The position numbers and the translations under genes were made by a program. The notes beneath the pieces are model-generated. The model was not told where the DNA came from. It was given only the letters and a program-made list of their open reading frames with translations, and ran no database searches. A DNA stretch of 63,997 bases, filler included, from Collodictyon triciliatum (taxonomy: Eukaryota), in NCBI GenBank assembly GCA_043381765.1. It is 6 parts of 6 records of this genome, joined end to end, with 100 filler letters (N's around TTAATTAATTAA, not from the genome) between each part and the next. Parts side by side here need not be neighbours in the genome. Positions count along the whole stretch, not along the records: positions 1 to 20,221 come from JBHJMP010001250.1; 5 more parts are not named here. One strand, written 5' to 3'. Positions 1 through 34,693 of the stretch are shown here, one piece after another; the first letter of the stretch is position 1; every line of letters starts with the position of its first letter.

Positions 1-97
1 AATACAATACAATACAATACAATACAATACAATACAATACAATACAATACAATACAATACAATACAATACAATACAATACAATACAATACAATACAA
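1..97 (+). repeat. (AATAC)n microsatellite at window start
   Basis: Perfect pentamer tandem repeat. Confidence 0.95.
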
Positions 98-623
98 TAA
101 AAATAAATGACTAAGTAATGAAACACGGTGAATAATAAATATATTAATAATTAAAAAAAATCAAGTCAACATAAAATAATAAATAAGGCGACGAAAGGGC
201 GAATGAAAATAATAACAAATAGAACCATTCATATGCGTATAGATGCACATCCACAACAAACTCATGGAAAGAAGCAAAACCTGGCACGATTGCTGGCTGT
301 ATATGTAAATATTCCACCCCACAAAGCAGATAAGGAAGAAGAGAAAATAAAGTTGCGACCTCCGCGTCCGGATGACAGCCATTCACGGCACACTGCACAG
401 ATCACATAAAGCATAATGATCAATCCTTTTCCCTTCAAAGTCTTTTCTATCCACACTCTCCTTCTCTTCATCTTTGAGCCAAACATCGACAGTCCTTGTC
501 CCAACATAGCTTTCGTGACTGTGCGCCCAAACACTTTCTTGCACACTCCAGCTCGGGGCGATGACAGCAAACAAACGATATTCATTGGCCTTTGTTTTCA
601 GCTTATTTTTTTTTTATCGCATA

Positions 624-745
624 CTAGAAAAGGTATACCAACTTTTCGACTGGTAAACCTGGTTCGCTAGTATCCAAGGTCTCACCATTTTTTTCACATA
701 GGTCGTTTAGTGGCGAACGCTGCCAGGAAAGACCCAACAGCCCGT
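624..745 (-). ncRNA. Putative Fanzor omega-RNA scaffold / element right end
   Basis: Immediately 3' of the Fanzor RuvC-III motif on the same strand. Contains hairpin GCTGTTGGG-TCTTT-CCTGGCAGC (741-719; pairs by G-U only on the minus strand), stem CCTTGG-ATACTAGCGAA-CCAGG whose loop ATACTAG is complementary to the terminal CTAGTAT, and hairpin AGGTTTACCA...TGGTATACCT. The last 69 nt recur at 34392-34460. Confidence 0.6.
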
Positions 746-2639
746 TTTTTAAAGAAAGATGTAGGCATATTTTGAAGGATTAAAAGAACTTGCTTGAGTA
801 TATCTTTTTAGCGCTATTCAAGTCCCTTGTCAAGAGTACAGTTTCTTTGCTTTCTGAGCGATTGTATTCTTTAAATACGAGGCATCTATACACCTTTTTT
901 TATATTTCCTATCAGTGTCATGTATTCCAGTTCTTTTTCGCAGTTGCATCACATCTTGGAGGTTCTAAATTCATTTACAATAAATGTTTCAAAACGTTTG
1001 GATAGTATTTTTCGTAATCCTCTTCCGATTGTTGGCATAAATACTTCATTGGAGATTTTCTACTCCTGCCTCCATACACCAGTACAACATCCTTGCCAAA
1101 TGTCTTTTCGATTCGGTCCATAAACAATTCTTCACTTCTTTTTGTATTAACATACTGTCTCCATCCCATCTTTCGAAAAGTTACTTGTTCATAAAATGTG
1201 GATAATTCTATCTGGCATCTTGATTTCATATGTACATATTTTCGAATTTTTTCATAATCGACCGTGCATGAATTATATTTACTCAGGTCTATGTCTAAAT
1301 CGATTAAAGATACTCTTGATGTCTCAAACAGCTTATTCTCTTAAATAGTCATTTGACCAAAAGAAATAGCTCTTTGTAAACGTGTTGCCATGCTTATCGC
1401 TGAAGAATTGTACTTTTCTTTATTCTTGCACAAGAGTATTTTGCGATTATTTATAGATTTGGTATCATGTCTTCATTAGTGTGCCGTGCAACGTAATTTC
1501 TTACCTTTCTCATCCACCATGTAAACCAAATTAAACTTGCCTGCGTCCACCCCAACTGTTTTTTTTTCTCGCTAATGAAGATATCTGCTCTTCGGAAAGG
1601 TCATCTGTATAAACATATTCTTGGATTTTTTTAATTATATTTGGATTTTGAATTTGAAATATCTTTCTTTCCAAACAATAATGACACCGCCAAGCCGTCT
1701 GATTGTATCATATATTTAAAATTATAGTCTCTTTGATGAAACCCCTTTTCTTCATTTCAAAGAACTCATCCCATAGGGTCTCTTTGCATCCTGATATGTT
1801 CTTCAGTAATTACGTTTTTCAAATAATACTAATAGACCCATCAAACATGCAGTATCTAGATTAATATGACATGGTATATTGTTAGTTCTTGTAGAGATTG
1901 GTTGAAACAGTTTGACTCCAATGTCCTCAAAAATGCGATTCATGTAAATCAGACACGGAATGTACTTATTTGGATTGACTTTGGCATCATATTTGATACC
2001 ATTTACAATATCGCTGGGAATGATACGATTCAAATGTATTTTAGCCCATTCTTTACATTGTTCCGGGTTTTCGAGTTTCACGAAGATGGTTTTTTAAACT
2101 TTCGTAACTCTGCCTTTTTAATAGCTTCCGTCATATTCTTCATCTTTAGGAACTGTTTGATTTATAAAGCGCAGTAGCCTTTTTACAAAATGTTCCTTAA
2201 TGTTATTATGATAAGCTGTTAACACTTGCTTCGCCAAGTACGGTAATACACGAGACAGTCCAACCAACAGAAAGCGTTCTTCTTGGGACAAAAGGAATAG
2301 AAAATCATTGAGATAAAAAGCCATCATGTCATCTCTCAAACCTGGTTTTTTTTTTAAAAAAAAATCATGCGGGTCTATCTTGTGAAACTATTCCGACTGT
2401 CTTTAAAGCGTACAAAAAAACTTTCCATCGATTGTTGAGAGTTATTGTGATTTCAATATGCAACATCTTGCAAACAGATAAGTGTCGGTAACCAAATTAT
2501 GACACAATAAAACCATATCGTTGATTTTGTAATAGTCATCCGCATTCTTTACAATCGACTTTAGAGATGTTTTCACATTTTGATAGCATAGCTTTACAGA
2601 CTTTTGATTATCAGACTCGAGTCATTATCTTTTCCTCAT
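740..2639 (-). pseudogene. Fanzor1 (TnpB/Cas12-like RNA-guided endonuclease), frameshifted and with premature stops
   Basis: Manual translation across frameshifts gives: N-terminal YQNVKTSLKSIVR..KINDMVLLCHNLVTDTYLF; YHNNIKEHFVKRLLRFIN; LFQPISTRTNNIPCHINLDT; YNFKYMIQSDGLAVSLLF; RuvC-I VGVDAGKFNLVYM (D 1545-1547); FRKMGWRQYVNTKRSEELFMDRIEKTFGKDVVLVYG; MPTIGRGLRKILSKRFETFIVNEFRTSK (RuvC-II E 970-972); Zn finger *CNC...VYRCLVFKEY; RuvC-III TRDLNSA (D 822-824). About 630 codons, no introns evident. Confidence 0.9.
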
Positions 2640-3364
2640 CTAAAAGTCTTTGTTTTGCTTTTTCCTACAGGAAACTACCGAGTTTTCAATTTTAGTAAAA
2701 CTTTAGTCAAGCAGTCAATTTAAAAATAAAATAAAAAACAACTGCATAAAATCAGTTTATGTAAAATTAAGCATCTACTGAGACTCTCAAAATATGTGCT
2801 TTGTGACAAACAAACACATCAAGTTTTTTTATAAGTGATTTGAGACAAAACCCTGAGAGCCGATTCGGCGAGTTCGAAAGGACGGCCGTATAGCCATTGC
2901 AACTGAAAGTCAACATATCGGCCCCAAACAACATAATTACCACCGTAAGTGTGGATAGCATGCTTTTTTGGAATGCACGTTTGGTGGCAGGTTTATAGGG
3001 TGGGTTCTGTCCAGGCCAAGACAAGAACTTGTTTGTCATTTTTGAATTCTAATGCAATAATATTACACCATGGAAAATAAAATATAAATTGATTACATGA
3101 ATAGAATGAGATTATTAAGTATTTTTTAACCTTATTATATGCTAATTATATTATTCAGGTTGTTTCTTAGATTCATCAAAGCTCCTGCTTTTGTCGATCC
3201 AGACTTAATTCGGTGATTGTCTGTGCAATAAACTGCTATATCTATGGGTACACATTCGTTGTATAAAAAGTGTTGTGCCTTGGAAGGGATAAAACCACGT
3301 TCGTCACAACCTTTGTAATGAAGTTTATCCATTTACAGGCTGAATGAAACTGAAGAGAATGGAA

Positions 3365-3555
3365 AGAAAAAAGAGAAGAAAAAAGAGAAGAAAAAAGAGA
3401 AGAAAAAAGAGAAGAAAAAAGAGAAGAAAAAAGAGAAGAAAAAAGAGAAGAAAAAAGAGAAGAAAAAAGAAAAAGAAAAAGAAAAAGAAAAAGAAAAAGA
3501 AAAAGAAAAAGAAAAAGAAAAAGAAAAAGAAAAAGAAAAAGAAAAAAGAGAAAAA
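3365..3555 (+). repeat. Purine-rich tandem repeat (AAAAAGAGAAGA)n / (GAAAAA)n
   Basis: Direct reading; source of the spurious poly-K/F ORFs. Confidence 0.9.
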
Positions 3556-4175
3556 GATACGGATGATTGAATCATAGTAACTAACACTGAGCACTATATT
3601 CATACTGACCTTGCTGCCCGTGGGTAGATGGCTAGATCTTGAGGCCTTTTTTTATTCTCCTTCATTATCATTATCATTATCATTATTACTCGTTTCAAAG
3701 AGCTCACTACGTCTTATTCATAGGTTGTTGTACTCACGGCTCGGTGGCAGCCGGCGTCCTGATCGTCGGTGTGTCTCGGGGCATAACCTGTGTGGTAAGG
3801 GATGTGGTAAAGTGACCTTTTCGCTCTCTGCGTTGACTGCGTCAGCCTTCTCGGTTTGCGTGCGATCAGTAGGCATTCATTGGCGCAGGGTTGTGGCACT
3901 GGTCTCCTGGTAGGCGGTCTCGTCCTACTCGGGATCGCTCTTTCCGATCACTTGCTTCCTTGCTTACTTTTTTTTTTCGGCTTTAGAATGTAGTGGGTTG
4001 GGAGAAGAAGGAAAGAATGCCAATGTTATAATATTACTTTTTAGAAAATGTCCTTTCTCTCTCAGTGTTTATTATTTCTCAGTAAAACAGATAGTTTTTT
4101 TTTTTTTTTTTAATGATTGTGTTCTTTTTCATTGTTCCTCTCAAATCTCTCAGTGCGATCACCACATTTATTCAC

Positions 4176-4290
4176 ACAAACAAACAAACAAACAAACAAA
4201 CAAACAAACAAACAAACAAACATACAAACAAACAAACAAACAAACAAACAAACAAACAAACAAACAAACAAACAAACAAACAAACAAACA
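4176..4290 (+). repeat. (AAAC)n microsatellite
   Basis: Direct reading. Confidence 0.95.
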
Positions 4291-4404
4291 GTTCAATTTT
4301 TTTTTTATATTCGCTTTATTGTGGAACGGTATATCGACAAGAGCGACGCCGCTGGATGCGCTGGGGCGATGACGTGTGCCCATCACATGCTGCATTCCTG
4401 GCCC

Positions 4405-7400
4405 TCACAAATCCAAGACTTCATCTGTGAATGTACGCGAGAGTTGGTCCAGCATCTCTGTGTTTGGTGATAAGAGGAGATATGCAAAATTTGAGTTCCT
4501 TTAGAAATGTGGATAAATGGTGGATACAACCGATGCAAGCTTGATACTAATGCAGACAAATTATCGAGGCATACCAAGCTCTCCAGGTTGCGTTGTCTCG
4601 TAAACCTGGCTCAGCTATTGGAAGGAATCAGGTGCTGTTAAACACACGCTGATTTGTGCGTCCATGTGTAATTAATTAATCATGAGCATCAGTCGCCACA
4701 GCGAATTACCTGCCAGATTCGAATGACACCTTTTGCATCGCCGGTTGCCAAAAGGTCCTTCTGTTTCGGATTAAAACAAACACTGTAGACCGGCGCAGAG
4801 TTTTGATAGGTTTTCAATACTGCTGCAGGTTCATATTTGCTTTTCTGCGAGTAGATATTCAAATTAGTTTTCATGAGGCCGCCCAGGGTGCGCGCCGAGC
4901 AGAGGTGTCAAAGTGATAATATATCGCACTTACTTTCAATTACATATGCAATTTGTCAGATAGAATATATATAGGGATTATAATCACACCATCAAATCGT
5001 ATATGTAACATGCACCATCGCCGCATGCCACAGCAAATACAAGCGGCCGAAATCCAGAAAACGAAACGTCATAAGGATAGCTCGACGATGGCATAAATGT
5101 CAGGACGGGCCTTTTCTACAAGTCAAGCAATAGAGCAAAATGATAATCAATTAGTCGAGAGGGTTGTTCAAATTCTTTGTGAGATGTTCGAGACTATGGA
5201 AGTAGGGAAAGTGGTTATGTTGATAATTAGTATCTGCCATTCCTGCAGAAATGGCCAATCCCTAAGTGGCCACAGCATTACATACCACGAATAAAGACGA
5301 CAAACGGATAGTGGAGTCAGCACTGCAACTGAGAAAGATGTTTCGATGAAAAGGTGAGCACATAACCCCGTGAATCGGCCCAGTGTGTTGTTCGTACGAC
5401 ATCTCAATTTGACAGGCTGCATCTATTTTGGTATTGGCACAATCGAAATTAGAGGAGACCAAAAAATCAGACCAATATACAATAAAGGGAAAAATCATTT
5501 TAGTTTCGGATTATTCGATTAGCATTATCATTATCATGATTTTTATTAAAAAGAGGCATTTTACAGCTATGTAGAGATGATAGAAAATTGATACCTTTGG
5601 TTTTTCCTGTAAATAAGGAGCATCGAAATATATTTCCTCCCTCAGTCCCAACTAGGAATTTGTTTCGGTCTTCTGCAGAGAAAGCCAAAGATGTCGCTGG
5701 AAAAGAAAAAGCAGTTCATGAAAGGCTTTCGTTTCCTTTTCCTTTTCCTTTTCTTTTTTGTTTTGCCGAATTAATCGTAAACCTGAGACATTACCATTTT
5801 ATGTTGCTTGTGTACATAATGAAACTGTATTCTTGATATATGTAGCGAAGATAACCTCCTTGGACAACGTCTTGCATTACCCGACCAGCGTTCTTGCTAT
5901 TGGAGGCAGCAGACACACTCGACACAACACGACAACTACCACAATTATAGATTATGTTGCCAAATATTTCTAACCCTTTGTGTTTAATGTAGCTGTGTGT
6001 TCTTACACAGAATTTTTTTTATTTAGATATATTGATTGAAGGAAACTGTGCGATGGATTCGATGGCAGTAGTATAGATAAATCAGAAACTGAATGGCTAA
6101 CCCTTGTAGAGGTTCCTTTAGATTATTGTTCTTGGCCCAAGTCAAAAGCTTTCCATCAGTCCCTGCACTGATAATCTAGTGAAGATTGATTAGTTTCACA
6201 AGCCTAAAATAAGGGTTAAGGAAAAACTGGCTTAAGAGAGCTGATACTGAGCGCTAATCTAACCACCTGACAATATTTTGCATTTGATCAAAAAGGAAAT
6301 AAAAAAAAAAGAAAGAAGAAGCTACTATCGCATTCACATCTCAGCCCACCTGATAACCTTTTCCGTTGGGAAGTGGATGCCAAACGAGCTTTTCACAATC
6401 GAATGGATAGAAGGTGATTAATTTGAAAGAATGTTTCATACAACATTCAAGGACAAGATAGTAATCAATAACCGTGCAATCCTATCCACAATGCTTGAAT
6501 CATAAGATGACACATAAATTCAGAAACCTTGGATATGGGTTCTTTGTGAGATGTTTCTGATAGAGGAGATGATGCCAACAAAGGTTCGGCTATATTTCCG
6601 ATATTCCACAGGTATATTTCACCTAATAGATTAAAATAAATTAAAGAGCGTGTAAATGCTTCTGATTAATAACAAACTGGCGTTTTTGATATCAATATAA
6701 ATGAATCGTAGAATTTCCCAACCATTGAACGTCCCTCCAGCAATAATTGCAGGATGCTCAGGATGAAAGGTAATACACATCAGACAATGCTGATAAAACC
6801 AAGTAAATGAAGTTATTAAAAAAATCGAGGGGTCCTAATTTCATGTACATATTTATCATCGAACGTTTTATTTTCTTCTGAGCGGTCGAATTTAAAAGTA
6901 ACTCGGTTACATCAAGTTCGATAACAACTTCAGGTTTGTTCCCTTCAAGTCCCCGTCGAAATATGTTCCAAACACATAGGTATGAACGATGCTGGCACCA
7001 GTTTTCGTGGTCATACCGCCCGTATCTAGAGCGGACAATGACAGGAGCTTATTCTTTGCAAATGAGATATTTTTGAATTCTCAATCCGCATATGTGAAAA
7101 AAAAAACCAATAGTCAAATAAATTGAAAGAGAAAAGAAAATGATTGAACCGAAAAGAAAAATATGCCAATCATTGGGATAAATAATGTTAATTTGTAGTG
7201 TCCATTTTCACAGATTATTAAATCTTACGCTGCAGCAACCAAAGAGCCAGTGGAGTTCCACGCGATTTCTGTGCATTGCAGATCTTCGAATTCACTTTTG
7301 TATTGGAGTTCATACAACATATTTACTTGGTTACGCTCGTCGTCCCATGAGACATACCAATCTATTAATATTTTGAGGCGTGTATGAAGAGATCTTTTAT

Positions 7401-8498
7401 TTGAGTCATTATGGGATTCATAAATTTTTTTTATTTAAACAATATCTAGATGCAATACAAGATATCAAACCGAGACTCACCTTGAAAAAGCAAAATTTGT
7501 GAAATGACAAAATAAATGGAATAATGATGAGAAATTGGTCACGTGCATCCACAAGAAAACTCATATGACCCACTCCAAAAATCATATGTTCATTTAATTA
7601 GAAAGAAAATGTAGACTGACCATCAAGTGCACGGCTATTAAGGTTGGAATTGAGTGTCTTCATTACATCAGGAACCGCACGGTTGAGAAATTCCTTCAAT
7701 CCAGGAAACTCTTGGTCTTTAACACTGGCAACTTTTGTGGCGATGTTGTCTGTTTGAACCTTTGATAGAATTGAATCTCAGCAGATTGTCCAACTAAGGG
7801 AACACGAAAGTTGATGTCTTTTATCTTCCAAAAGGTGTAAGGTATCTCCATTTGTTGGGGATTTATTCCCTTTTATCATAATGATGGCATATTATTATTA
7901 TTATTATTATTAAGAAATCAGGGTTGAGAAATTATAAAAAAAAGAAATAATCAAGTGATTGGAATGAACGAAATGAAAATTAAGCTAAAAATTGAATAAA
8001 ATAAAAGATAAAAACAAATAAAAACAAATAAAAACAAATAAAAGCAAATAAAAACAAATAAAAAATAAAACAAAATAAATAAAATAAAAAATAAAAAATA
8101 AAAACAAAAGATGAAAACAAAAGATAAAATAAAAAGAAATAAAAGGAAATAAAAACAAAAGATAAAAACAAAAGATAAAAACAAAAGATAAAAACAAAAG
8201 ATAAAAACAAAAGATCAAAACTAGAGATAAAAACAAAAGATAAAATAAAAAGAAATAAAAAGAAAAATAAAGATAAAAAAGGATGAAATAGTAATAATAC
8301 TTAATTTTGGATATTTACTTGAATTTCTCGCTTTTCATGAGTCTGGCACTCGGACTGGGCGGTGGACACAACCTCTGTCTGCATGCTTTGGCTTCTCGGG
8401 GCGCGCTGCTGACGCCAAGAAGACGGGAAGTGGCTCTGAGTACAGTCGCTGTCGCCCAAAGACGCAGCCGGTACGGAATTCGCTGCTTGTACTGACAT
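4405..8498 (-). CDS. WDR34: Dynein-2 intermediate chain WDR34 (WD40, retrograde IFT), multi-exon
   Basis: Spliced exons read SSWRQQR..MQTE; LKEFLNRAVPDVMKTLNSNLNSRALDG; CTEIAWNSTGSLVAAA|YGRYDHENWCQHRSYLCVWNI; FHPEHPAIIAGGTFNGEIYLWNI; FSAEDRNKFLVGTEGG; HTGPIHGVMCSPFHRNIFLSCSAD; FNPKQKDLLATGDAKGVIRIWQ|LSQVYETTQPGEL|EMLDQLSRTFTDEVLDL*. Motif order matches WDR34; introns are GT-AG. Confidence 0.88.
7995..8280 (+). repeat. A-rich degenerate minisatellite (GATAAAAACAAAA-like) in WDR34 intron 1
   Basis: Direct reading. Confidence 0.8.
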
Positions 8499-11355: not shown

Positions 11356-11931
11356 NNNNNNNNNNNNNNNNNNNNNNNNNNNNNNNNNNNNNNNNNNNNN
11401 NNNNNNNNNNNNNNNNNNNNNNNNNNNNNNNNNNNNNNNNNNNNNNNNNNNNNNNNNNNNNNNNNNNNNNNNNNNNNNNNNNNNNNNNNNNNNNNNNNNN
11501 NNNNNNNNNNNNNNNNNNNNNNNNNNNNNNNNNNNNNNNNNNNNNNNNNNNNNNNNNNNNNNNNNNNNNNNNNNNNNNNNNNNNNNNNNNNNNNNNNNNN
11601 NNNNNNNNNNNNNNNNNNNNNNNNNNNNNNNNNNNNNNNNNNNNNNNNNNNNNNNNNNNNNNNNNNNNNNNNNNNNNNNNNNNNNNNNNNNNNNNNNNNN
11701 NNNNNNNNNNNNNNNNNNNNNNNNNNNNNNNNNNNNNNNNNNNNNNNNNNNNNNNNNNNNNNNNNNNNNNNNNNNNNNNNNNNNNNNNNNNNNNNNNNNN
11801 NNNNNNNNNNNNNNNNNNNNNNNNNNNNNNNNNNNNNNNNNNNNNNNNNNNNNNNNNNNNNNNNNNNNNNNNNNNNNNNNNNNNNNNNNNNNNNNNNNNN
11901 NNNNNNNNNNNNNNNNNNNNNNNNNNNNNNN
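11356..11931. other. Assembly gap (N run)
   Basis: Run of N without a linker. Confidence 0.99.
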
Positions 11932-16325: not shown

Positions 16326-18447
16326 CGAAAAAACAAAAAACAAACATAGGTGGCTATCAAGAAAATGAAGAGGAAGTTTTATAACTGGCAAGAATGTATG
16401 GATCTTCGAGAAGTGAAGGTTTTCATTTCTATTACAAAGCGACTAAATGATGATTCATGTAACCCTCTCGACTTAGTGCCTCTGGTTTTGTTGTTTTCTA
16501 ACGTCGCCTTATCTTATCCCCTACTTATGATCCTTCGTCAGTCTCTGCGAAAGATGAATCATCCAAATATCATCAAACTCAAGGAGGTGATTCGAGAGAA
16601 CGATGAGTTATTCTTTGTCTTTGAGTATATGGAGAATAACCTATACCAGTTGATGAAAAGCCAGGACCGCCTTATATCAGAGGCTACGATCAAGAGCCTA
16701 ATGTATGTCCTCCTGTGGTTTAATGCCTGCAGAATCTTTTCATCATGATATATATATATACGTTTATATACCACGTGCAGCACTGATTTCCACATCACAA
16801 AAAACGAACAAGAAAACAAAAACTAAAAAAGGCCCGATTTGGACGCCAAATTAGACATCTTATAATGAAATACTGTATCAGTCGAATACCTTATTGCGTA
16901 ATTCTGTTAATTGATTTATTATTACGTCCACAAAATAAATGAGTAGGCGCCTTTACCATTTGAATTGATTACAGGTACCAGCAGATCAATGGCGTGGCAT
17001 ATATGCATAAGCACGGTTTCTTCCACCGAGATATTAAGCCTGAAAATATGCTTATGATCAAAGATGTAGTCAAAGTTGCTGACTTTGGGCTTGCCAGAGA
17101 GATTCGCTCTCGTCCGCCATACACCGATTACGTCTCCACGCGATGGTTGTCACATTGCATCAGAATATTTGAACATATCTAGCATATTCTTTATTTGGGG
17201 CGCATAATAAGCTCATTCGCCTAATCCTTCCTTCCTTCCCTCCCTCCTTCCTTTATTTCATTTTCTATTTTAAAAAACTACCAGAATCTACCAGCAGACC
17301 AGTCTGAATGCCATTTCTGTAGGTATCGAGCACCCGAAGTTCTGTTGCGTTCACCCAGCTACAACAGCCCCATGGACATTTGGGCCTTGGGTGCAATCAT
17401 GGCCGAGCTGTACACTCTGCGCCCACTATTCCCAGGAAACAGCGAAAGCGATCAGATTTACAAGATTTGCATAGTATTAGGCCCGCCTACAACACAAAGC
17501 TGGCCTGACGGACTTCGCCTAGCATCGGCCATGAACTTTAAATTTCCCCAAGTAAAAGCTTTTTTTTTTTAAAAAAAAAAAAGAATAGAAAAGAAGCTGT
17601 GGATATATTCATTTTATTTGAAATGTCCTATGTCAAAACTCTCATCATGCTATAGTGTGCGCCAGTTCCGTTATCCACGTTGATACCAAACGCATCTCCA
17701 GAGGCCATCCAAATCATAACAGAAATGCTGAGATACGACCCAAACAGAAGACCCACAGCCGTCCAACTATTGCAGCATCCTTATTTCACAAACGTACAGC
17801 TTCCAATTACACTTCAAGAGCCCGAATACAAGCCATCTGGCGCAGCAGCTCCGTATGAGCCAGAGACCAGCCATTTTCTTGCCCCTCCCAAGAAGGAAGA
17901 GCAAAATGCAAAGCCCAATCCGCCCAGCTCGCATTATAATCCAATAGCGAAAGGCTCCAAGTTCTTTCCTGACATCGCTCCGGCGGCTGCAGCTGCGAAC
18001 CACAGGTATATTTTTTTAATACATATGTCGTATCTTTATCATTGTTATTTCCCGTTTTATACAGAACAATACCACGAAATAAAATGGTTCACTCGTAAGT
18101 ATTCCATACTCACACCGCCACATAAGTTTTGGTCAGAAATATCATAGCAATCAAACTGATGTCTTCAACTATGATTGCAGTTCCCCAGACGGCGCAGCCC
18201 CCACCAAACAGTATGCCTCTAAAGGTATTTTCAGTACGCCTCTTCCTGCCATACAACGCGGTTCTAGCATCGCCGCTGGGGCACTCGCCGGTGTCCAGTA
18301 TCAATTCATTCCTTGCCATATCATCCTGGATGTCATAAGTGATATAGATAAAAAGAAAAGAAAAAGACGCATTATTATGTGCAATAATCTCCCAGTCCTG
18401 ATTATTTCTCTCGTAGGTACGACGCTTTTGGGCGACGTAAATACTGA
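16005..18447 (+). CDS. MAK/ICK (RCK family) Ser/Thr kinase, multi-exon
   Basis: [18 protein letters not shown]..|[42 protein letters not shown]..; [35 protein letters not shown] (TDY activation loop); low-complexity tail ending YDAFGRRKY*. Confidence 0.92.
16228..16324 (+). repeat. (AAT)n microsatellite in kinase intron
   Basis: Direct reading. Confidence 0.95.
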
Positions 18448-20221: not shown

Positions 20222-20321
20222 NNNNNNNNNNNNNNNNNNNNNNNNNNNNNNNNNNNNNNNNNNNNTTAATTAATTAANNNNNNNNNNNNNNNNNNNNNNN
20301 NNNNNNNNNNNNNNNNNNNNN
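20222..20321. other. Artificial contig linker (44N-TTAATTAATTAA-44N); also at 29049-29148, 49340-49439, 60908-61007, 62380-62479
   Basis: The same 100-nt construct occurs five times, has stops in all six frames, and is mostly flanked by simple repeats where assemblies break. Confidence 0.97.
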
Positions 20322-23542: not shown

Positions 23543-26500
23543 ATGCTGTTGGTCGCGTTTGCCATCGTTTTTATTGTTTCATCGGCATCATCAATCCATC
23601 TACGTCAAAGGTACATTTTGATTTATGAAGATTTATGAAAAAAAAAAAAACACTTTCAACTCAAATAACGAAAACAGATGCCAGTATTCAAGAGATGAGC
23701 TGCTTTCCATGAAAGTCGAAGACGCATTCCAAATTCTGTTGAGCCACTACGATGAGACATGCCCTTTGTTAAAAAAGAGCAGAGAGAATTTTTCAGAATT
23801 GATGAATGACTGCAAAGATAGGGAATACTCGCTAGAAAATGGACACAGTACTGAATTGAATTATCGAAGAAAATTAACGTATGGTGAGTTCGATTTCTAT
23901 GAAGAAATGTATTCGTCAAAACGAATTGAAAACAGAGAAAGGGAGTTGGGAAATGAAGAGAACCATAGTGTGGCTGATGGAAATACTGGGACCCAATACG
24001 AACTCCTTGTCCAACTTTACGATTTACTTGGCGGCGATAATTGGTTTCTGAATACTGGATGGAAGAATGAAAATATTCCGATTTGTGATTGGTATGGAAT
24101 ATTCTGCTATCAGAGTTGTTCTGATGAGGATTATAAGGTGATATTTTGAAATAAATCATCTCTCATGGTTTCATATTAACAGTTTTTTCTTTATGTTTAT
24201 AGGGCAACACATGCCCCATAGATGAAATCTACTTAATTAGAAACAACCTTTACGGTAACATTGAAGCTGCTTCTGCGATTCTTGAGAAGTTCCAATTATT
24301 GGTTAATTTGCTCATGAGCTTCAACTCCATTTACGGAAATCTTCCAGACTTTAAACTTCCAAGTATTATGTATTTGAGCCTAAATGGAAATCGAATTACT
24401 GGGACGATTCCAGACTTTAAAGGAATGCCGAACATTCAAAATATTGATATTGATGGGAATAAATTGGAAGGAACAATACCAGATTTTTCCGGAATTCAAT
24501 CACTGTCATATTTAACTATTGGTGAAAATGAAAAAATTACAGGTAGTAAGTAATTTTATTCTTATTTAATTTCAATTATAATGATATTTTCCATTTCAGG
24601 AACTCTGCCTGATTTCTCGGCGTTGCCAAATGTTCAGATTCTTATGATTTATAGCTGCAATCTTTATGGTTTGTTTTTTTATTTAATTACATGTGATACT
24701 AGTATTTAAGCCAAACTTATATTTATTTCAGGCACGGTTCCTAATTTCAGCGGTATTCCCAGTGTTGAAATGCTTTCATTTTACAACAACCAATTAACTG
24801 GTAATTTTATATTATTATTTCATATAATATTGATAATGAAAAACTGACTTTATTATTCAGGAAATGTTCCAAACTTCAGTGGCATCCCAAGGGTTGAAAC
24901 AATTTTGCTTTACAACAACCAATTAAATGGTAATTTCATCATTTTTTTTAATATATTGTTGATATTAACTAACATGATATTACAGGTACTGTTCCAAACT
25001 TCATTGGAATTCCTGCTGTTTTAAGTATTTCTATCTACAACAACCGGTTGACTGGTAAGTTTTATATGATTATTTCATATTTTTGATATTAACTAACTTA
25101 ATATCACAGGAACAATTCCAAACTTCAATAGAATTTCTAGTCTTTTAAGGATTTCTCTCTACAACAACCATCTCAATGGTAAGTTTTATTATTTTTTATG
25201 TGTTATTGATACAAAACTAACTTCATATCATAGGCACAATTCCAAACTTCGATGGATTTATGTATGTTTCAGTTATTGATTTTGGCAATAATCAATTGAC
25301 TGGTAATTTTCTAATATTACCTAATGTGTTATTGATGAATAACTGACTCAATATTTAATATTACAGGAACCGTTCCAAACTTCAATGGAACTTCAAGTAT
25401 TGAAACAATTTCTCTTTACAGAAACCAATTGATCGGTAAGTTTTATTATTATTTCAGTTTTTTTTTAATTCCGCATTTCCTCTAACGTTAATGAGTAATT
25501 TTAGGCACAATCCCAAAACTCTCCAATTTTAAAAAACTGGAGATTTTTTCTGTTTATGAGAATAATTTGGAGGCGGGGGTTCCAGATTTCAAAGATTGCA
25601 AAAACATCAAGGAGATATTGCTATTCCGAAACAAGTTGTCAGGAACGTTACCGATGTTCAATATGAAGAATCTGATAAGACTGGATGTGAGCGAAAACCA
25701 AATCAGTGGCTCTATCCCAGAAAATTGGATATTGCCATCAATTAAATACATCGACTTGTCTTGGAACAAAATGAACGGCACAGTCCCAAGCTATTTCCAG
25801 GCATTACCAGGGCTCAAATCAATCGTTTTATCTCACAATCAATTCTCTGGAAGCATACCTGATTCAGTCTGGAATATGCCGAATATAGTCACCATTGACT
25901 TAAGAAACAACTCGTTTTCAGGTGATATTGGTTTTTTTGTTGTTCCAAATCTGATTTATACGGTTTTCTACTACGAAAGCCTTTTTATTGATGATAACCA
26001 ATTGTACGGAGAATTGAACTCTAGGATATTCGACAATCTTAGTAATGTAAAAATCTTAAGTCTTAAAAACAACAACATCACCAAGCTTGATGACCTTACA
26101 AATCCTTTGAAGTGGAATTCCCTTGACCTCACTGGAAATCCGATTGTTGGGAGCATTCCTGAATCATACATCGGATTTTCAAAGCTTGAGTATTTGGGAT
26201 TGAATACAAAATCGATGAATCATGGAACAGCTAATTTTCTTCCTGAATTTATGAATTTCACAACATCTTTCAATCTCCAAGATGAAATGAAACGCTACCT
26301 ATGTCCTTCAATTATTTCGAAATCTGGTCTGATTGAGTTAGAGGTTGACTTGAATCCAGAATACTATGATTTTGAATTATGTAAATGCTTGCCTGGATAT
26401 TTCGGTTTTGGAAATAATTGTGTTGAATGCCCAAGAGGATGTGATTGCCTTGATGGAACGACCTTGAAATTCTGCCATGCCTCCCCAAGCATTACCTATG

Positions 26501-28053: not shown

Positions 28054-29148
28054 TCAATATAAGGATGAAAAAAACATGAAATAAACCATAATACTGCTTT
28101 CTTAAAAAAAAAAAACTTACAATATTGGAATGTGTATTTAAATTTCTTTATTTTCTACGATTTTCAATTCATTAATTTTTTCAGTTTTTATACTTTGTTT
28201 ATAATAGATGTTCCAATCATGTCATTCATTCCAAGGCATGTTAGTATATTCTCGCTTATTTAAAACGTCATTCTGCTCAAAGCTGATAAGTGACCACTGT
28301 ATCAAGACCATCATTCATACTTCAAAATATTTATATTTGCATTTCATCGTTTACAATCATATTCGTTTCTTCGATCTCGTCGGGAACAACATATGGGGCC
28401 CGACTCGAGTGTGGAAGTCGAAAGTGACAGCTTGAGACAAACACACTCGAACGCACGAGAATCGAGTACACAACTCGACCAAGGCCCCTCGGCCACACCG
28501 ATCCGCCGGTCAAAGAGAGCCCAGGAGCTGAACCTGTATGGAGCCGGCTGCTACGTCCACCTTTGAGGTAAGCACATACTGCCCCAGAACCACGAAGCCT
28601 GCAACCAAGCGAAGAAAGAACTCGCCCAAGTCCTTAAAAAACTCAAGTGCTACGAGGAGAACGTGATCGTGCAACTGTACGTTCAACCCCAAGCCCTTTG
28701 GTTTTGCACAAAAACCATACGAATGGCAACCAAGCCGAGCTCAGGTGCGGTGAGCGCAAGCGAAACGCACAAGAGTGAGGTGCCTCAACTTGACGACGAG
28801 AATGTGGTCTACGAGCATTACCGGACGCGACCGGTGGAGCGAGCAGCGGGGCTGCAGGAGAAGGGACTCTACCCGGCCGGCTGCGTGGTGCGCCTCGTGG
28901 GCGAGTACACTGAGACGCTGACACACGCCACACGCCTGCGTCTGCTGGAGCAGCTGTGCGAAGTCCACCGCACCCGCGAGTGCGCCACGGAGGGCGTTGT
29001 GCTGCTGGCATCCGACCTGTCGAGCGGCCTGGGCCTTGCGTACCCCCGNNNNNNNNNNNNNNNNNNNNNNNNNNNNNNNNNNNNNNNNNNNNTTAATTAA
29101 TTAANNNNNNNNNNNNNNNNNNNNNNNNNNNNNNNNNNNNNNNNNNNN

Positions 29149-29262
29149 CTCTTCTCTTCTCTTCTCTTCTCTTCTCTTCTCTTCTCTTCTCTTCTCTTCT
29201 CTTCTCTTCTCTTCTCTTCTCTTCTCTTCTCTTCTCTTCTCTCCTCTTCTCTCCTCTTCTCT
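29149..29262 (+). repeat. (CTCTT)n microsatellite
   Basis: Direct reading at contig start. Confidence 0.95.
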
Positions 29263-29350
29263 TCCTGAAACACATGCCTCCCCTTCTCCACAGAGCGCCG
29301 ATCAAGCAAACGCCCAGCAGCTGCTGCCCAGCCACCGAATCCCAGCCAGC

Positions 29351-32300
29351 ATGAGCGCACCCGGCATGAAGCCGATTGTCCCGCTGCTGCCTTTGGACCG
29401 CCTTCCCCCACCCGTCGAGTCCAACCCGCCCCCAAACACCGCCTCCCGAGACGATTCGGACGTCGAGACCGAAGCCGATGTCTCCATCTCCACCGACATC
29501 GATGCTGCGGCCGCTGCAGACGTTGCCCCGGCCTCTCCCATGCCCGAGCCGCCCGTCTCCAATGCAAACCTGCCCAGATACGCCCAAGAGAAGCATCCAA
29601 ACCCGACACAGACGCCCACTCGCACAACCCCGCAAAAGGCAGTGGCCCGCCCAACTCCGATTTCCGAGACGCACGTCGCAAAGACTCCGCCCTATCGCCC
29701 AATCCTCACAGGCCCAAACGCCTCAACCACAAGCACAACGCCAAACTCCACTCCAAACCCCACTCCAAATGCCGCTGCAGCCTCGGTCAGTGCACCCCGG
29801 CCCCAAAAACCCTTCATACACGTCGCCCATTCATACGAAGACAAACGCGTTGATGTTGCTGCTGTTGCTGCTGCTGCTCTTCTGCGCCAACAACAAGCTC
29901 CTGCTGCCTCCACACCCGAAAAGACCTGGTTTCCTGATCAACATCATCCCCATGACACCCACTCAGGCCCGACATCGGCTATTCCCTTCAATCACCAAAG
30001 GAACTCCTCTCCCAACACAAAGTTCCCGCCACAGAGACAGTCTCACTCGTCTCCCTCTGTCTCGGCCCCAAAACCCTCGGGCCCGCTTGATCTCCATTAT
30101 CGCCATCAGGTCCCTCCCCAAACAGAGGATTTTATCTCCCGGAATATGCTCTACACCACCCAACCTCCTCAAAATGCCCCTCAGTACCAACAAACTCAGA
30201 TGCCTAGACACGAGTCCCCTCAACAACGCTACGAGGCATGGGCTGTGAAAACTCCTGATCAGCGCGTAGCTCATGGTAGAACTTCACCTTATCCTGACCC
30301 CCTCCCTTCAGACGTTTCCAATCAGGCTTCCTTTGCAAATACATCTCAGCTATACTCAAACAGCTCATATTATACTTCCCAAAGTCGCTCAAACTCCCCG
30401 AATGCTCCTACCCGCCCTAAACCGACGTCTACACCCCAGTCTTTTTTTAATGCTTCGTCTCAGAATCAAGAGATAATTGAGATGAGATTGCGACTGAAAG
30501 AGCTCGAGCAGTATCGAGAAAAGTACAGGGATATTGTTGATCACGTTCGTTTTCTAGAGTCCAAGATTGTAGCACTAAATTCTACTGTGGAATCTTTGGA
30601 GACAGAAGTTCGGCTAAGAGGAGATACAATTGAACAACTTAACCAGCGCTTGAGAGATTCTTCAAAAACCATTCAAAAGCCAAACATCATCGTCAAGGAA
30701 ACCATACATCCCGCTTTGCGCTCTTCCTTAAATGCTGTGGACTTGAATTCTGGCATCCCTGAATCAAATGCGACTATTTCCCCTGAGGCGTATGGTGCCC
30801 TGTTTAACAAAGTTCAATCTTTAGAAGCTGCTCTTATTCAGGCTCAAGCAGGGATTCCATCAAAAGATCAATATGTATTAGAGCTGGAAAAAAAATCAAG
30901 AATCTTGGAGAAAGAACTCAAAGTATTTATTTTTCATTTATTCGATCAAATAACTCGGATTACATCTGCATTTTTCAATAAATTTTCAGTGCTTGTTATA
31001 TTGATTTTTCCTTTTATCATTCTTTAATTCAACTGGTTTGATATTGCCTTCTTATGAGGATTCCTGTCACAGTTTTTTTTTTTAAAAAAAAAATAAACAT
31101 TTTATTTTCATATCCTCATTTATATCATATGATCTTTATACTTTTACATGTTTAATCCTGACCTAGCTTCGAATTGTTTGTCGTCTTAAAATATAATTTT
31201 TTTTTAAAAAAAAAATTATATAGGAGATAGCCGCACAATTAGCAACATCCACTGACGAGAATCAAAGGCAGCAATCTCTAGCTATTCAGAAAGTATACGA
31301 ATCCCGCGAAATTGCTGAAGCTACACATAAGGAACTACAACTTAAGGTTCTGAATATTTGTCACTTTTATTCTTAAAGTCTATATAATGGATACGAGTAA
31401 AACATCCATGAATTTAGCTGTAATTATTTTTTGAATCATTATATATTCCTTTATCTCCAACACGAAAAAAAAAAATCATTTATTCGATTAAGGGAAGGAA
31501 GGGTTTTTAGATTTTTCTACAGTCCGACGTAATTGAACACAAACATTTTTGAAATAATCATAACAATACTGCAGATAAAGGAAGTGAATGCCCTTCAGCA
31601 CAAAGTTGAAGAAATGAAACCATATATTTACTATTCCGAAGAATCCAGCAAGCATATTCGAAAGCTTGAAGAGCAAATTCGGCATTACCAGTCAGAAAGG
31701 AAGTACTGGGTGAAATATCAATTCAAGAGTGATGCTAATCCCAGCCAAGGGGACGATATATCTTCCCATCTGTCACAACTTACACTGAGGTTGGTTGAGT
31801 GTGAAGCACAGTTAGAGGCAAAAGAAAGCAAGATTTTAAAGTTGCAGGAAAATTTATCGAAACTAGAAGTCCAATTGGAAGAAAAAGATACACAATCTCG
31901 ACAACTTTCTGTTCAATTGCAGCTGCTGGATTCAAAAACAAAGATGCAGGCATATTCACTGGAACTTGCCAACAAAGATGAACACATCCACCTGTTGGAG
32001 AAACGCATCCGGGTGATTGGAGAGGAAATGAGCCTCCGCGAAAAAGACTGGAAACATACTTTCTCAGAATTGAAACGAAAGCTTGATGACACCCAACAGC
32101 TCATGAAACTCAAGGATTCAAAGTATCAGCTACTGCAGTACGAACTGGACCACAGAATCGTCAACCATCGCAAAGAGTTGGAGACCGACCAAGCACAGAT
32201 TTCTGTCCTGGTAAACGAGCTTGCATCAAGGAATGCTGTTCTGCTCCACAACCAGGCCATCGTCTCGAGGGCCAGAGACGGACTCGACCACTCCTCTGTC

Positions 32301-32651
32301 ATAGTCGACCTTGTAGAAAGATTTGAGAAAGTGGAACGAGAACGCATTAACCAAACGATTCTCATAGAACGGCTCCAGAATGAGATTGCAGCAAACTCTA
32401 TCGGGGTGCAACCTTCCTCTGTGTCGAACGGGCTTGCATCTCTCGATACCGAGGAAGGTGCTGACGACCTTTCAAGCTTTGTTGGAGACATTGCGAAGGA
32501 ACTTACTGCCCGGCTTCGGAATAAATCAGTGGAATTGAACAGAATGAAGGCCCGCACTGCTGTTTTGACTAAAGAACTTTTACGATACCGCACTTCAACT
32601 TCTCAGCTCGAACATCAAATCGTCGAATCTGTTCAAAGACCCCAGGCCTAA
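29351..32651 (+). CDS. Large protein with Pro/Ser/Thr-rich N-terminus and long coiled coil; 3 exons (~29351-30921, 31224-31346, 31575-32651)
   Basis: Long ORFs joined by GT-AG introns; heptad-rich E/K/L/Q sequence. No specific family recognised. Confidence 0.75.
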
Positions 32652-34292: not shown

Positions 34293-34459
34293 TCTATCCT
34301 ATACCACGCGCTGTGAATAAATATGGTGAGACCTTGGAACCCCCCCTCGGTCCTGCACAAAAGTTGAAAGGAAGAATAAAAAAAATAAAATAAAATGGTG
34401 AGACCTTGGATACTGGCGGACCAGGTTTACCAATCTTTCGATTGATATACCCCTTCTAG
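34293..34459 (+). mobile_element. Miniature non-autonomous Helitron-like element carrying the Fanzor right end ('ghost' copy), interrupted by a retro-stub
   Basis: 34392-34460 aligns ungapped with 691-623 (-) at 57/69 nt. Ends in hairpin + CTAG followed by T; candidate 5' end A|TCTATCCTATA at 34293. Confidence 0.65.
34339..34388 (+). mobile_element. Short A-tailed retro-insertion (family B) inside the ghost element
   Basis: TSD AATAAA(T)ATGGTGAGACCTTGGA (34316-34338 / 34389-34410); body TCCTGCACAAAAGTTGAAAGGAAGAATAAAA. Confidence 0.75.
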
Positions 34460-34652
34460 TCTAGAATAAACAGAAAAAAAGAAAAAGGATCAAAACTAAT
34501 TTCCTTGACGCCCAGAAGTTATCGCAAAATCACATACCTTCTTCCCTAAGCCCCACTCAGTTAATACTCAACATCGGATGGTCTCTAATCTATGCCGATC
34601 AGCACAACCTCGAAGCATTCATATGTACGACTAACCTTTGCTCGATTGTATC

Positions 34653-34693
34653 TTCACCATCCTGCACAAAATCGAAAGGAAGAATAAAAAAAA
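34653..34693 (+). mobile_element. Short A-tailed retro-insertion (family B)
   Basis: TSD AACCTTTGCTCGATT(G/C)TATC (34633-34652 / 34694-34713); body TCCTGCACAAAATCGAAAGGAAGAATAAAA. Confidence 0.8.

What the first reader, a model, noticed from the sequence alone, without database searches (positions are those of the whole stretch)
740..2639. Hidden, nearly full-length Fanzor1 RNA-guided nuclease gene
Seen: joining minus-strand frames gives a colinear ~630-aa protein with VGVDAGK (RuvC-I D, 1545-1547), VLVYG...MPTIGRGLRKIL...IVNEFRTSK (E, 970-972), a Zn finger (*CNC ... FKEY, each changed codon one base from Cys) and TRDLNSA (D, 822-824), plus IQSDGLAVSLLF and the N-terminal VKTSLKSIV..INDMV block. 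The ORF track shows only three short pieces. Established: this D-E-ZnF-D layout, with the glutamate just before the Zn finger, characterises Fanzor1, the eukaryotic TnpB relatives that act as programmable RNA-guided DNA endonucleases. Inference: this copy is dead (several frameshifts and stops), but it documents a Fanzor family in this lineage, and an ancestral ORF could be reconstructed.
Basis: partly seen in the sequence, partly recalled or inferred. Interest (0 to 1): 0.88.

Follow-up and report, generated by a model that had tools for sequence, protein, structure and literature searches.

The report
Dead Fanzor1 nuclease gene copy
This is a real but thoroughly broken copy of a Fanzor1 RNA-guided DNA-cutting gene, one decayed member of a repeated mobile-element family already well known in eukaryotes and giant viruses, so it is ordinary.

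Summary
Minus strand 2639..694 is a full-length, intron-free, colinear pseudogene of a ~648-aa protein. A frameshift-aware alignment to the intact database protein P0003 gives 381 identical of 653 columns, with 7 in-frame stops and 11 frameshifts.

P0003 matches only the solved Fanzor1 proteins by sequence (E 2e-28 to 4e-23). Its AlphaFold model (pLDDT 88.3) has all seven top PDB fold matches in Fanzor1 (TM 0.61-0.80). Fanzor2, TnpB and Cas12 reach TM 0.34 or less.

The copy is dead beyond its frame breaks. It has lost three of four zinc-ligand cysteines and family-conserved residues.

Contigs of four public runs carry many 80-99%-alike relatives. They read Gln, Cys, Thr and Asp where this copy has a stop, Tyr, Ser and Gly. 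Several lesions are therefore private to this copy.

One part of the interpretation needs correcting: the Glu-before-zinc-finger layout is shared by Fanzor1, Fanzor2 and some TnpBs. It is homology and fold that assign Fanzor1.

A ~90-nt conserved element right after the stop, with a second copy at 34.4 kb, is a candidate ωRNA scaffold or transposon end. This is unproven.

Interest is low: a new member of a known kind.

The parts
694..2639 (-). Full-length, intron-free Fanzor1 pseudogene (ATG 2639-2637; terminal TGA 696-694). It has 7 in-frame stops and 11 frameshifts.
   Evidence: tblastn; frameshift-aware alignment to P0003, 381 identical of 653 columns; the N-terminal piece read with X at stops hits GtFz1 at E 5.6e-8.
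1545..1547 (-). RuvC-I Asp (GAC) in VGVDAGK. The family-invariant Pro of the DPG motif is Ala here (GCA 1544-1542).
   Evidence: P0003 D364 aligns with SpuFz1 chain residue 777, which is D383 after a 394-residue tag offset. D364 and P365 are invariant in 77 sequences.
970..972 (-). Alternative RuvC-II Glu (GAA) in NEFRTSK, six residues before the first CxxC.
   Evidence: P0003 E555 aligns with SpuFz1 chain residue 935, which is E541. E555 is invariant.
822..824 (-). RuvC-III Asp (GAC) in TRDLNSA.
   Evidence: R603 and D604 are nearly invariant in the family alignment. The equivalence to SpuFz1 D606 is inferred, because it is not covered by the HMMER alignment.
864..951 (-). Degenerate zinc finger. 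Cys562 is TGA (951), Cys587 is TTT Phe (875) and Cys590 is TAC Tyr (866). One frameshift lies inside it (899).
   Evidence: C562 and C565 are invariant in A4. Other copies read TGC at 866.
1694..1702 (-). SDG, the decayed form of the Fanzor1 WED-domain TDG motif (TCA GAC GGC).
   Evidence: T312 is invariant, and D313 and G314 are nearly invariant. TDG is described as characteristic of Fanzor1 (PMC10711439 passage). Other copies read ACA (Thr) at 1702.
602..694 (-). Conserved ~90-nt non-coding element starting right after the stop codon. It is a candidate ωRNA scaffold or right end of the element.
   Evidence: 78% identical to 34389-34481. The 15-mer TGGTGAGACCTTGGA occurs 3 times, and 0 of 100 shuffles reach 3. 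It folds as a long hairpin, z -2.97, with 1 of 200 shuffles as good. Contigs of other runs cover it.
34389..34481 (+). Second, ORF-less copy of the 3' element, with a partial extra copy of its first 15 nt at 34324-34338. It may be a solo end or 'ghost' remnant.
   Evidence: It shows no significant fold on its own (z -0.11).

Best explanation
Window 694-2639 (minus strand) is a decayed, non-functional copy of a Fanzor1 gene, the eukaryotic and giant-virus relative of TnpB. In its intact form the protein is a roughly 650-aa ωRNA-guided double-strand DNA endonuclease. It has a RuvC active site built from Asp (DPG motif), an alternative Glu placed six residues before a CxxC...CxxC zinc finger, and a C-terminal Asp (RDxN). 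The gene belongs to a repeated family whose other members, seen as many short contigs in four public runs, are closer to the intact state. By analogy with SpuFz1 elements, the ancestral unit was probably a small Fanzor-only mobile element. [quoted passage not shown] Shown here: homology, Fanzor1 fold of the nearest intact relative, the positions of the catalytic residues, the lesions, and the existence of less-damaged relatives. Inferred: the nuclease mechanism (from characterised Fanzor1s), the ωRNA role of the 3' element, the unit size and the mode of mobility. This copy itself does nothing beyond being a fossil.
For: Full-length colinearity with the intact 648-aa P0003: E 5.5e-56 for the central piece, E 4.2e-80 for the N-terminal piece, and 381 identical of 653 columns.

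By sequence, P0003 matches only Fanzor1 chains at significant level: GtFz1 2.1e-28, PpFz1 2.7e-24, SpuFz1 3.7e-23. The only other rows at E<=1 are two myoglobins at 0.38 and 0.62. The window's own N-terminal read-through hits GtFz1 at 5.6e-8.

The AlphaFold2 model of P0003 has pLDDT 88.3 and pTM 0.87. In Foldseek against the PDB, ranks 1-7 are all Fanzor1 (E 1.4e-26 to 1.2e-23; TM 0.61-0.80). The next hit is Cas12X at 1e-6, TM 0.32. Fanzor2 9b0l scores 6.9e-5, TMq 0.21, and TnpB 8h1j scores 7.6e-4.

P0003 D364 and E555 align to SpuFz1 D383 and E541. The family is large: 3147 representatives at E<=1e-3 and 537 at E<=1e-30.

Decay: 7 stops and 11 frameshifts. Family-invariant T312 and P365 and family-consensus D522 are replaced by S, A and G, and 3 of 4 zinc-ligand Cys are lost.

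Other copies: 361, 166, 21 and 75 contigs were laid from runs X1-X4 at >=80% likeness. All covering contigs read CAA instead of TAA at 1478 (8, 4, 3, 2 contigs) and at 2444 (11, 1, 1, 1). Of the 40 best-supported differences shown, 35 lie in aligned codons: 14 change the residue to that of P0003, 1 moves away, 7 are silent and 13 do neither. Opposite indels matching 4 of the 11 frameshifts occur in part of the other contigs: 1038 +A, 2139 -1, 1632 -1, 1819 +C.

The 3' element is described. The SpuFz1 precedent comes from section 7 of PMC10432273: a 2.1-kb single-ORF locus, a 75-nt scaffold between the stop and the 3' IR, and 134 ORF-less ghost elements.
Against: No terminal inverted repeats or target-site duplication could be found around the copy. 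The best end-to-end match is A/T low complexity, score 26 against a shuffle maximum of 27. The transposon superfamily and the 5' boundary are therefore unknown.

The ωRNA reading of the 3' element rests on two window copies only. Those copies show no compensatory pair changes (0 of 12 pairs), the second copy does not fold significantly (z -0.11), and there is no Rfam match.

The local Pfam copy gives no hit to P0003. The family label PF26935/DUF8286 comes from precomputed tables and the Atlas.

The central window piece alone is only marginal against the PDB (E 0.19). The structure was predicted for the relative P0003, not for the window's own broken protein. Convergence of the three acidic residues in space could not be measured, because no coordinates were available.

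Contigs laid at 80-95% likeness in metagenomes may come from related organisms, not from the same genome.
Confidence: 0.93

Rival explanations
1. The gene is alive and is read by an unusual genetic code (stop codons reassigned) and/or programmed frameshifting, as in some ciliates.
For: Five of the seven in-frame stops are TAA or TGA at positions where P0003 has Gln or Arg. That is what a TAA=Gln code would also produce.
Against: Eleven frameshifts of both signs cannot be recoded. Other genes in the same window are long open frames under the standard code: 430-aa LRR, 321-aa LplA-like, and 625-aa and 526-aa ORFs. Related contigs carry CAA where the window has TAA, which indicates mutation and not recoding. 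Family-conserved residues and Zn ligands are also lost.
Confidence: 0.01
2. The frameshifts are assembly or sequencing errors (for example homopolymer miscalls) in an otherwise intact gene.
For: Several frame changes lie at or near A/T homopolymers (1568, 1632, 899, 2366).
Against: Base-substitution lesions cannot come from indel errors: 7 stops, Cys to Phe/Tyr, Thr to Ser, Pro to Ala, Asp to Gly. Neighbouring long ORFs are intact. Some contigs in the runs match the window at >=99% (26, 6, 3 and 3 contigs in X1-X4; two 151-nt X3 records have 0 differences), so the sequence is reproduced independently at least in parts.
Confidence: 0.03
3. The copy is a remnant of integrated giant-virus DNA and not a cellular transposon copy. 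The family was delivered by Nucleocytoviricota.
For: The nearest Atlas clusters are 92-100% viral, commonest Nucleocytoviricota. Of 247 pattern matches in IMG/VR, 169 encode relatives, best 44-47% identical to P0003, many on GVMAG contigs. In a FastTree of 98 rows the window+P0003 pair lies nearest a clade that contains viral contigs.
Against: No viral genes flank the copy. The neighbouring 2.6-11.2 kb has no long ORF and is microsatellite-rich, and the rest of the window has intron-split cellular genes such as a protein kinase, a histone and an M16 peptidase. There is no DNA-level similarity of the element's ends to the 79 viral loci. The join to the viral-containing clade is unsupported (open fork), and most database proteins carry no taxon. 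The relatives laid from the runs look like a dispersed repeat.
Confidence: 0.12
4. It is a Fanzor2 or TnpB pseudogene and not Fanzor1.
For: The DPG / alternative-Glu / ZnF / D layout is shared with Fanzor2 and pro-Fanzor TnpBs.
Against: By sequence, only Fanzor1 chains are hit. In the fold search Fanzor1 reaches TM 0.61-0.80, against Fanzor2 at 0.21/0.28 and TnpB at 0.21/0.33. The 648-aa length with a long N-terminal half and a TDG motif also fits Fanzor1.
Confidence: 0.01

Closest known systems
Spizellomyces punctatus Fanzor1 (SpuFz1, Spu-1 elements; PDB 8gkh, 9ceu-9cez)
   Same: Best fold match of the nearest intact relative: TMq 0.75, TMt 0.80, E 1.4e-26. The catalytic Asp and alternative Glu align. 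[quoted passage not shown] The window shows a ~90-nt post-stop element with an ORF-less second copy.
   Different: Only about 20% sequence identity. No 30-nt inverted repeats are detectable here. This copy is dead. The ωRNA is not demonstrated.
Guillardia theta Fanzor1 (GtFz1; PDB 9cer-9cet)
   Same: Best sequence match among solved structures: E 2.1e-28 for P0003, and 5.6e-8 for the window's own N-terminal piece. The TDG, DPG, GNW/GDW and E..TS..C motifs are shared (alignment).
   Different: Distant; the alignment is in two stretches. In GtFz1 the ωRNA overlaps the last 17 codons. Here the conserved element starts after the stop.
Giant-virus (Nucleocytoviricota) Fanzor1-like 'transposases', Pfam DUF8286 (PF26935)
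   Same: Same Pfam family by precomputed annotation. There are 169 relatives in IMG/VR, at 33-47% identity to P0003 among the 80 kept, of full length ~600-650 aa.
   Different: The window/P0003 pair is a separate, long-stemmed lineage (stem 0.68, support 100). The non-coding ends are not shared. The window is cellular nuclear DNA.
Fanzor2 / IS607-type TnpB with rearranged RuvC
   Same: DPG motif, alternative Glu before the zinc finger, and an RNA-guided RuvC nuclease (passages).
   Different: Much shorter proteins without the Fanzor1 REC/WED insertions. Fold similarity is only TM 0.2-0.3, and there is no sequence hit at E<=1.

Membership tests
Fanzor1 | Significant sequence similarity to experimentally characterised Fanzor1 proteins, and not to Fanzor2 or TnpB | tested here: met
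   P0003, 58% identical to the window read-through, hits GtFz1, PpFz1 and SpuFz1 at E 2e-28 to 4e-23, with no Fanzor2 or TnpB chain at E<=1. The window N-terminal piece hits GtFz1 at 5.6e-8. The central piece alone is marginal (0.19).
Fanzor1 | Fanzor1 fold (WED, enlarged REC, RuvC, ZnF) over the full length | tested here: met
   Tested on the intact relative P0003, not on the broken window protein. The model has pLDDT 88.3. The top 7 PDB matches are all Fanzor1, TM 0.61-0.80.
Fanzor1 | RuvC-I Asp in a DPG motif | tested here: inconclusive
   The Asp is present (GAC 1547-1545), but the invariant Pro is Ala in the window (DAG). P0003 has DPG, and its Asp aligns with SpuFz1 D383.
Fanzor1 | Alternative RuvC-II Glu six residues before the first CxxC | tested here: met
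   NEFRTSKM-[TGA]-CNC: the Glu at 972-970 has the right spacing. It aligns with SpuFz1 E541 via P0003 E555. The feature is shared with Fanzor2 and some TnpBs, so it is not discriminating.
Fanzor1 | CxxC...CxxC zinc finger | tested here: not met
   In this copy 3 of the 4 conserved Cys are lost: TGA 951, TTT 875, TAC 866. The finger is intact in P0003, and Cys is present at 866 in the other copies. This is a pseudogene lesion and not a family difference.
Fanzor1 | RuvC-III Asp (RDxN) | tested here: met
   TRDLNSA, with GAC at 824-822. R603 and D604 are nearly invariant.
Fanzor1 | TDG motif in the WED domain (described as characteristic of Fanzor1) | tested here: inconclusive
   The window has SDG (TCA 1702-1700). 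T312 is invariant in 77 relatives. Other copies read ACA (Thr): 9, 3, 1 and 1 contigs in X1-X4. The motif definition comes from a passage in PMC10711439.
Fanzor1 | Cognate ωRNA/fRNA encoded at the 3' end and extending into the flank | tested here: inconclusive
   A conserved ~90-nt element follows the stop directly. It has a second copy at 34.4 kb and a hairpin with z -2.97. There is no covariation, no RNA data, and no Rfam family.
Fanzor1 | Residence in a eukaryotic transposon with recognisable ends (TIR/TSD) | tested here: not met
   No credible TIR or TSD was found around 600-2860. The ends may be decayed, or the element type may lack long TIRs.
Fanzor1 | RNA-guided DNA cleavage activity | not testable with these tools
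   This copy cannot encode an active protein. Activity would have to be tested on an intact family member.

The most novel reading that the evidence does not exclude
The organism or organisms behind the related contigs may still carry intact, mobile members of this compact Fanzor1-only element. Such members would have an unusually short (~90-nt) post-stop ωRNA and ORF-less 'ghost' ends, like the one at 34.4 kb next to a histone gene. That would be a distinct, long-branched Fanzor1 lineage shared between a freshwater protist and giant viruses, and it could yield a new small programmable nuclease.
Probability: 0.25. Interest if true: 0.45.

Novelty: new member of a known kind. Interest (0 to 1): 0.24.

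Why it matters
It matters little on its own. Fanzor1 nucleases are already characterised biochemically and structurally, and are catalogued in thousands across eukaryotes and giant viruses (3,655 unique sequences and up to 122 copies per genome according to PMC10530073). A dead copy adds one more host lineage.

Three modest points of value remain:
- It flags a repeated Fanzor1 family whose other copies are less damaged, so an intact member with its guide RNA might be recoverable from the source organism.
- The window+P0003 lineage is a distinct branch of the DUF8286 group that is otherwise abundant in giant-virus contigs, which bears on virus-host exchange of these elements.
- It is a useful annotation: the locus should be masked as a transposon relic and not called as three short ORFs.

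Tried and rejected
- Whole genome of the window: none is held, so copy number and intact copies could not be searched directly.
- Local Pfam-A gives nothing significant, either for the eight window pieces (best OrfB_IS605 at E 0.14 on the 31-aa VGVDAGK piece) or for P0003-P0006.
- Terminal inverted repeats and TSD: inverted-repeat scan of 1-8000 and local alignment of the two ends (score 26; shuffles mean 17.5, max 27; the match is A/T low complexity). Nothing credible came out.
- RNA: no Rfam match at E<=1 in 1-5000 or at gathering thresholds in the whole window. No tRNA or SINE-like tRNA head was found. The 241-nt 3' region as a whole does not fold better than shuffles (z -0.69). The two-copy alignment gives no compensatory changes.
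- Related DNA elsewhere: the metagenome-contig scan with P0003 found one distant locus (21% identity, L001). The viral-contig scan with P0003 alone found none. The 77-sequence alignment was too diverse to scan with, so a 9-sequence alignment was used instead. The viral loci share no similarity with the element's non-coding ends.
- Sequencing runs: no RNA holder is listed, so nothing can be said on expression. All 14 holders have small word shares (<=0.14).
- Parts of the stretch without cover (500-576 in X1, X3 and X4; 2733-2800 in all four, where repeats were skipped) are not used as evidence of element boundaries. The 5' boundary stays undetermined. The 3' side has only a hint: contigs in X2 and X4 (2 each) run on unlike the window below 644.
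- Alternative genetic code and assembly-error readings were considered and rejected (see rivals).
- The Atlas search of the neighbouring 625-aa ORF (29150-31024) gave only weak coiled-coil-like leads.
- Spatial convergence of the three acidic residues could not be measured, because model coordinates are not exposed.
- Supplementary tables of the Fanzor survey papers were not opened. They may already list this family or host.
Full report
**1. The observation**

The window is eukaryote-like DNA: 37% G+C, rich in microsatellites, with 1017 N. No whole genome is held for it.

Searching the central single-frame piece (975-1571, read with X at its stops; P0001) against 5.8 billion proteins returned an intact 648-aa protein, P0003, at E 5.5e-56 and 60% identity. 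The N-terminal piece (P0002) returned the same protein at E 4.2e-80. It was the best of 22 hits, and all 22 carry the precomputed family PF26935.

tblastn of P0003 against the whole window finds only this locus (E 3e-150 and 8e-17).

I wrote a protein-to-DNA alignment that allows frame changes. The window is colinear with P0003 from the ATG at 2639 to the last codon at 699-697, followed by TGA at 696-694.
- Identity is 381 of 653 columns.
- There is no intron-sized gap.
- There are 7 in-frame stops: 2627, 2624, 2444, 1478, 1475, 1343, 951.
- There are 11 frame changes: 2418, 2366, 2137, 2093, 1809, 1744, 1632, 1568, 1041, 899, 807.

So is the remark that each altered zinc-finger codon is one base from Cys: TGA 951, TTT 875, TAC 866.

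**2. What it is**

By sequence, P0003 hits only the three solved Fanzor1 proteins at significant level: GtFz1 at 2.1e-28, PpFz1 at 2.7e-24 and SpuFz1 at 3.7e-23. No Fanzor2, TnpB or Cas12 chain appears at E<=1. The window's own N-terminal read-through hits GtFz1 at 5.6e-8. The central piece alone is marginal (0.19).

A full HMMER scan of 1.84 billion cluster representatives with P0003 finds 3147 relatives at E<=1e-3 and 537 at E<=1e-30. All 154 proteins fetched up to that point hit the window region by tblastn.

An alignment of 77 full-length members has these invariant positions, in P0003 numbering:
- T312 (TDG motif)
- D364 and P365 (DPG motif)
- Y481
- G521
- E555 and S559 (E..TS)

D313, G314, R603 and D604 are nearly invariant.

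AlphaFold2 on this alignment gives a confident model of P0003 (pLDDT 88.3, pTM 0.87). In Foldseek against the PDB, ranks 1-7 are all Fanzor1 structures (SpuFz, PpFz, GtFz; E 1.4e-26 to 1.2e-23; TM 0.61-0.80 over about 650 columns). The next tier begins at E 1e-6 with TM 0.34 or less. It includes Cas12 variants, mimivirus Fanzor2 (6.9e-5, TMq 0.21) and TnpB (7.6e-4).

In the HMMER alignment to the SpuFz1 chain, P0003 D364 and E555 fall on chain residues 777 and 935. With one and the same 394-residue tag offset these are D383 and E541. Together with D606, those are the magnesium-coordinating residues reported for SpuFz1 (passage in PMC10432273).

I could not measure the spatial convergence of the three residues, because model coordinates are not exposed. 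The equivalence of D604 to D606 is inferred from the conserved RDxN motif.

**3. Correcting the interpretation**

The passages I read say otherwise. The DPG motif and the alternative Glu six residues before the first CxxC are common to Fanzor1, Fanzor2 and a narrow TnpB clade (PMC10711439). 'All Fanzor proteins' and a TnpB subset carry the relocated Glu (PMC10530073).

The same NAR paper names different features as typical of Fanzor1: the TDG motif in the WED domain, the REC insertions, and residence in eukaryotic transposons. The Fanzor1 call is right, but it rests on homology and fold and not on the D-E-ZnF-D order.

**4. The copy is dead and has less-damaged relatives**

Besides its 18 frame-breaking lesions, the copy has replaced family-conserved residues:
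- T312 is Ser.
- P365 is Ala.
- D522 of the YGDWS motif is Gly.
- Three of the four conserved zinc ligands are lost.

In a FastTree of 98 rows the window and P0003 are sisters (support 100). The window's end branch is 0.50 against 0.28 for P0003, as expected for relaxed constraint.

Fourteen public runs hold small shares of the stretch's words. They are freshwater, lake and subsurface metagenomes plus coded organisms. I laid four of them at >=80% likeness, which placed 361, 166, 21 and 75 short contigs on 577-2732. In X1, 26 were >=99% alike, 98 were 95-99%, 132 were 90-95% and 105 were under 90%. Up to 16 distinct X1 contigs cover one place.

Every covering contig reads G at 1478 (8, 4, 3 and 2 contigs) and at 2444 (11, 1, 1 and 1). 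Both changes turn the window's TAA into CAA.

I translated the 40 best-supported differences that the tool listed (698 more were not shown). Thirty-five lie in aligned codons:
- 14 change the residue to that of P0003
- 1 moves away from it
- 7 are silent
- 13 do neither

The 14 include Ser to Thr in TDG (1702), Tyr to Cys in the zinc finger (865), Gly to Asp in YGDWS (1069) and stop to Gln (1478).

Among the 12 listed indels (100 more were not shown), four are the opposite of window frameshifts and occur in part of the contigs: +A at 1038, -1 at 2139, -1 at 1632, +C at 1819.

Many of this copy's lesions are therefore private, and the family's common sequence is nearer to an intact gene. Two caveats apply. 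Contigs at 80-95% likeness in metagenomes can come from related organisms. The other five stops were not among the rows shown.

P0003 remains the closest intact full-length protein in the databases.

**5. Surroundings and the non-coding ends**

The window is cellular nuclear DNA. It contains:
- a protein-kinase gene split into at least two exons (16350-16745, 17656-18144)
- a histone-fold ORF
- an LRR protein
- an LplA-like ORF
- an M16 peptidase fragment
- a reverse-transcriptase ORF

The 8.5 kb upstream of the pseudogene (2.6-11.2 kb) has no long ORF and is full of simple repeats. No partner transposase is visible, and the window ends 690 nt downstream. I found no credible terminal inverted repeats or target duplication.

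The ~90 nt that follow the stop codon directly (694 to 602, minus strand) recur at 34389-34481 on the plus strand at 78% identity, without any Fanzor ORF. Their first 15 nt occur a third time at 34324 (3 matches; 0 of 100 shuffles reach 3).

The copy next to the pseudogene folds into a long hairpin (-22.3 kcal/mol, z -2.97, 1 of 200 shuffles as good). The distant copy does not (z -0.11). The two-sequence consensus shows no compensatory change. By eye, the inner stem differs only by wobble-to-Watson-Crick changes.

Related contigs cover this element. In X2 and X4, two contigs each run on unlike the window below 644.

This anatomy resembles SpuFz1 as described in section 7 of PMC10432273: a 2.1-kb single-ORF locus, a 75-nt ωRNA scaffold between the stop and the 3' IR with a 14-15-nt guide beyond it, and 134 ORF-less ghost elements sharing that region. 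I therefore read 602-694 as a candidate ωRNA scaffold or right end, and 34389-34481 as a possible solo remnant, at roughly 40% confidence.

There is no Rfam family, no RNA evidence, and no similarity to the flanks of 79 viral loci.

**6. Relatives in giant viruses**

The Atlas names PF26935 as DUF8286. Its nearest clusters are 92-100% viral, commonest Nucleocytoviricota. A scan of IMG/VR with a 9-sequence alignment found 169 encoding stretches among 247 pattern matches. The best are 44-47% identical to P0003, and many lie on giant-virus MAG contigs.

In the tree the window+P0003 pair sits on a long stem (0.68). It lies next to, but is not supported as sister of, a clade containing five viral contigs. 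The direction of any virus-host transfer cannot be told, because most database rows have no taxon and the tree is unrooted.

**7. Rivals**

- Recoding is excluded by the 11 frameshifts, by the normal long ORFs nearby, and by CAA in the relatives.
- Assembly error cannot create stops and missense changes at conserved residues.
- Fanzor2 or TnpB is excluded.
- A giant-virus insertion remnant cannot be fully excluded (about 0.12) and is not exclusive of the main reading.

**8. Verdict**

This is a correct and careful first-stage observation of an ordinary object: a fossil Fanzor1 gene from a repeated family. It is a new member of a known kind.

Its only forward value is as a pointer to possibly intact family members and their short guide RNA in the source lineage. 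Supplementary tables of the Fanzor surveys, which I did not open, may already list the family.

Noticed in passing
window 34324-34481 (+), between a histone-fold ORF (33477-33884) and ORF 35227-36804: An ORF-less second copy of the Fanzor 3' element, plus a partial repeat of its first 15 nt. Nearby there is a short local repeat (34351-34385 is about 94% identical to 34660-34693).
   Followed up: partly
window 20222-20321, 29049-29148, 49340-49439, 60908-61007, 62380-62479; also 11356-11931: Five identical masking patterns (44 N, 12 bases, 44 N) and one 576-N run. They look like a masked dispersed repeat, or withheld stretches, and not like assembly gaps.
   Followed up: no
window 54938-55819 (+) and 52322-54418: A reverse-transcriptase (RVT_1, E 1.2e-16) ORF lies next to a 2-kb internally repetitive ORF with tandem repeats at 53228-54093. 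This is probably a retroelement.
   Followed up: no
window 16350-16745 and 17656-18144 (+): Two ORF pieces match the middle and the end of the protein-kinase domain. The gene is therefore split by an intron of roughly 0.9 kb, evidence that the window is nuclear eukaryotic DNA.
   Followed up: no
window 29150-31024, 35227-36804, 31533-32648 (+), 40619-41656 (-): Long open frames (346-625 aa) have no Pfam family. The 625-aa one has only weak coiled-coil-like Atlas leads.
   Followed up: partly
window 1-114 and 52186-52297; 3250-4300; 24675-25463: There are simple and tandem repeats: (ATACA)n-like runs at both places, (CTTTT)n/(CAAA)n microsatellites upstream of the pseudogene, and a ~130-bp tandem array at 24.7-25.5 kb.
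   Followed up: no
proteins P0157-P0177 and P0003: Many intact family members sit on very short contigs of 2.0-3.9 kb (for example 2610, 2679, 2010, 2577, 2518, 2403 bp). This is what a dispersed ~2-kb repeat unit that breaks assemblies would give.
   Followed up: no
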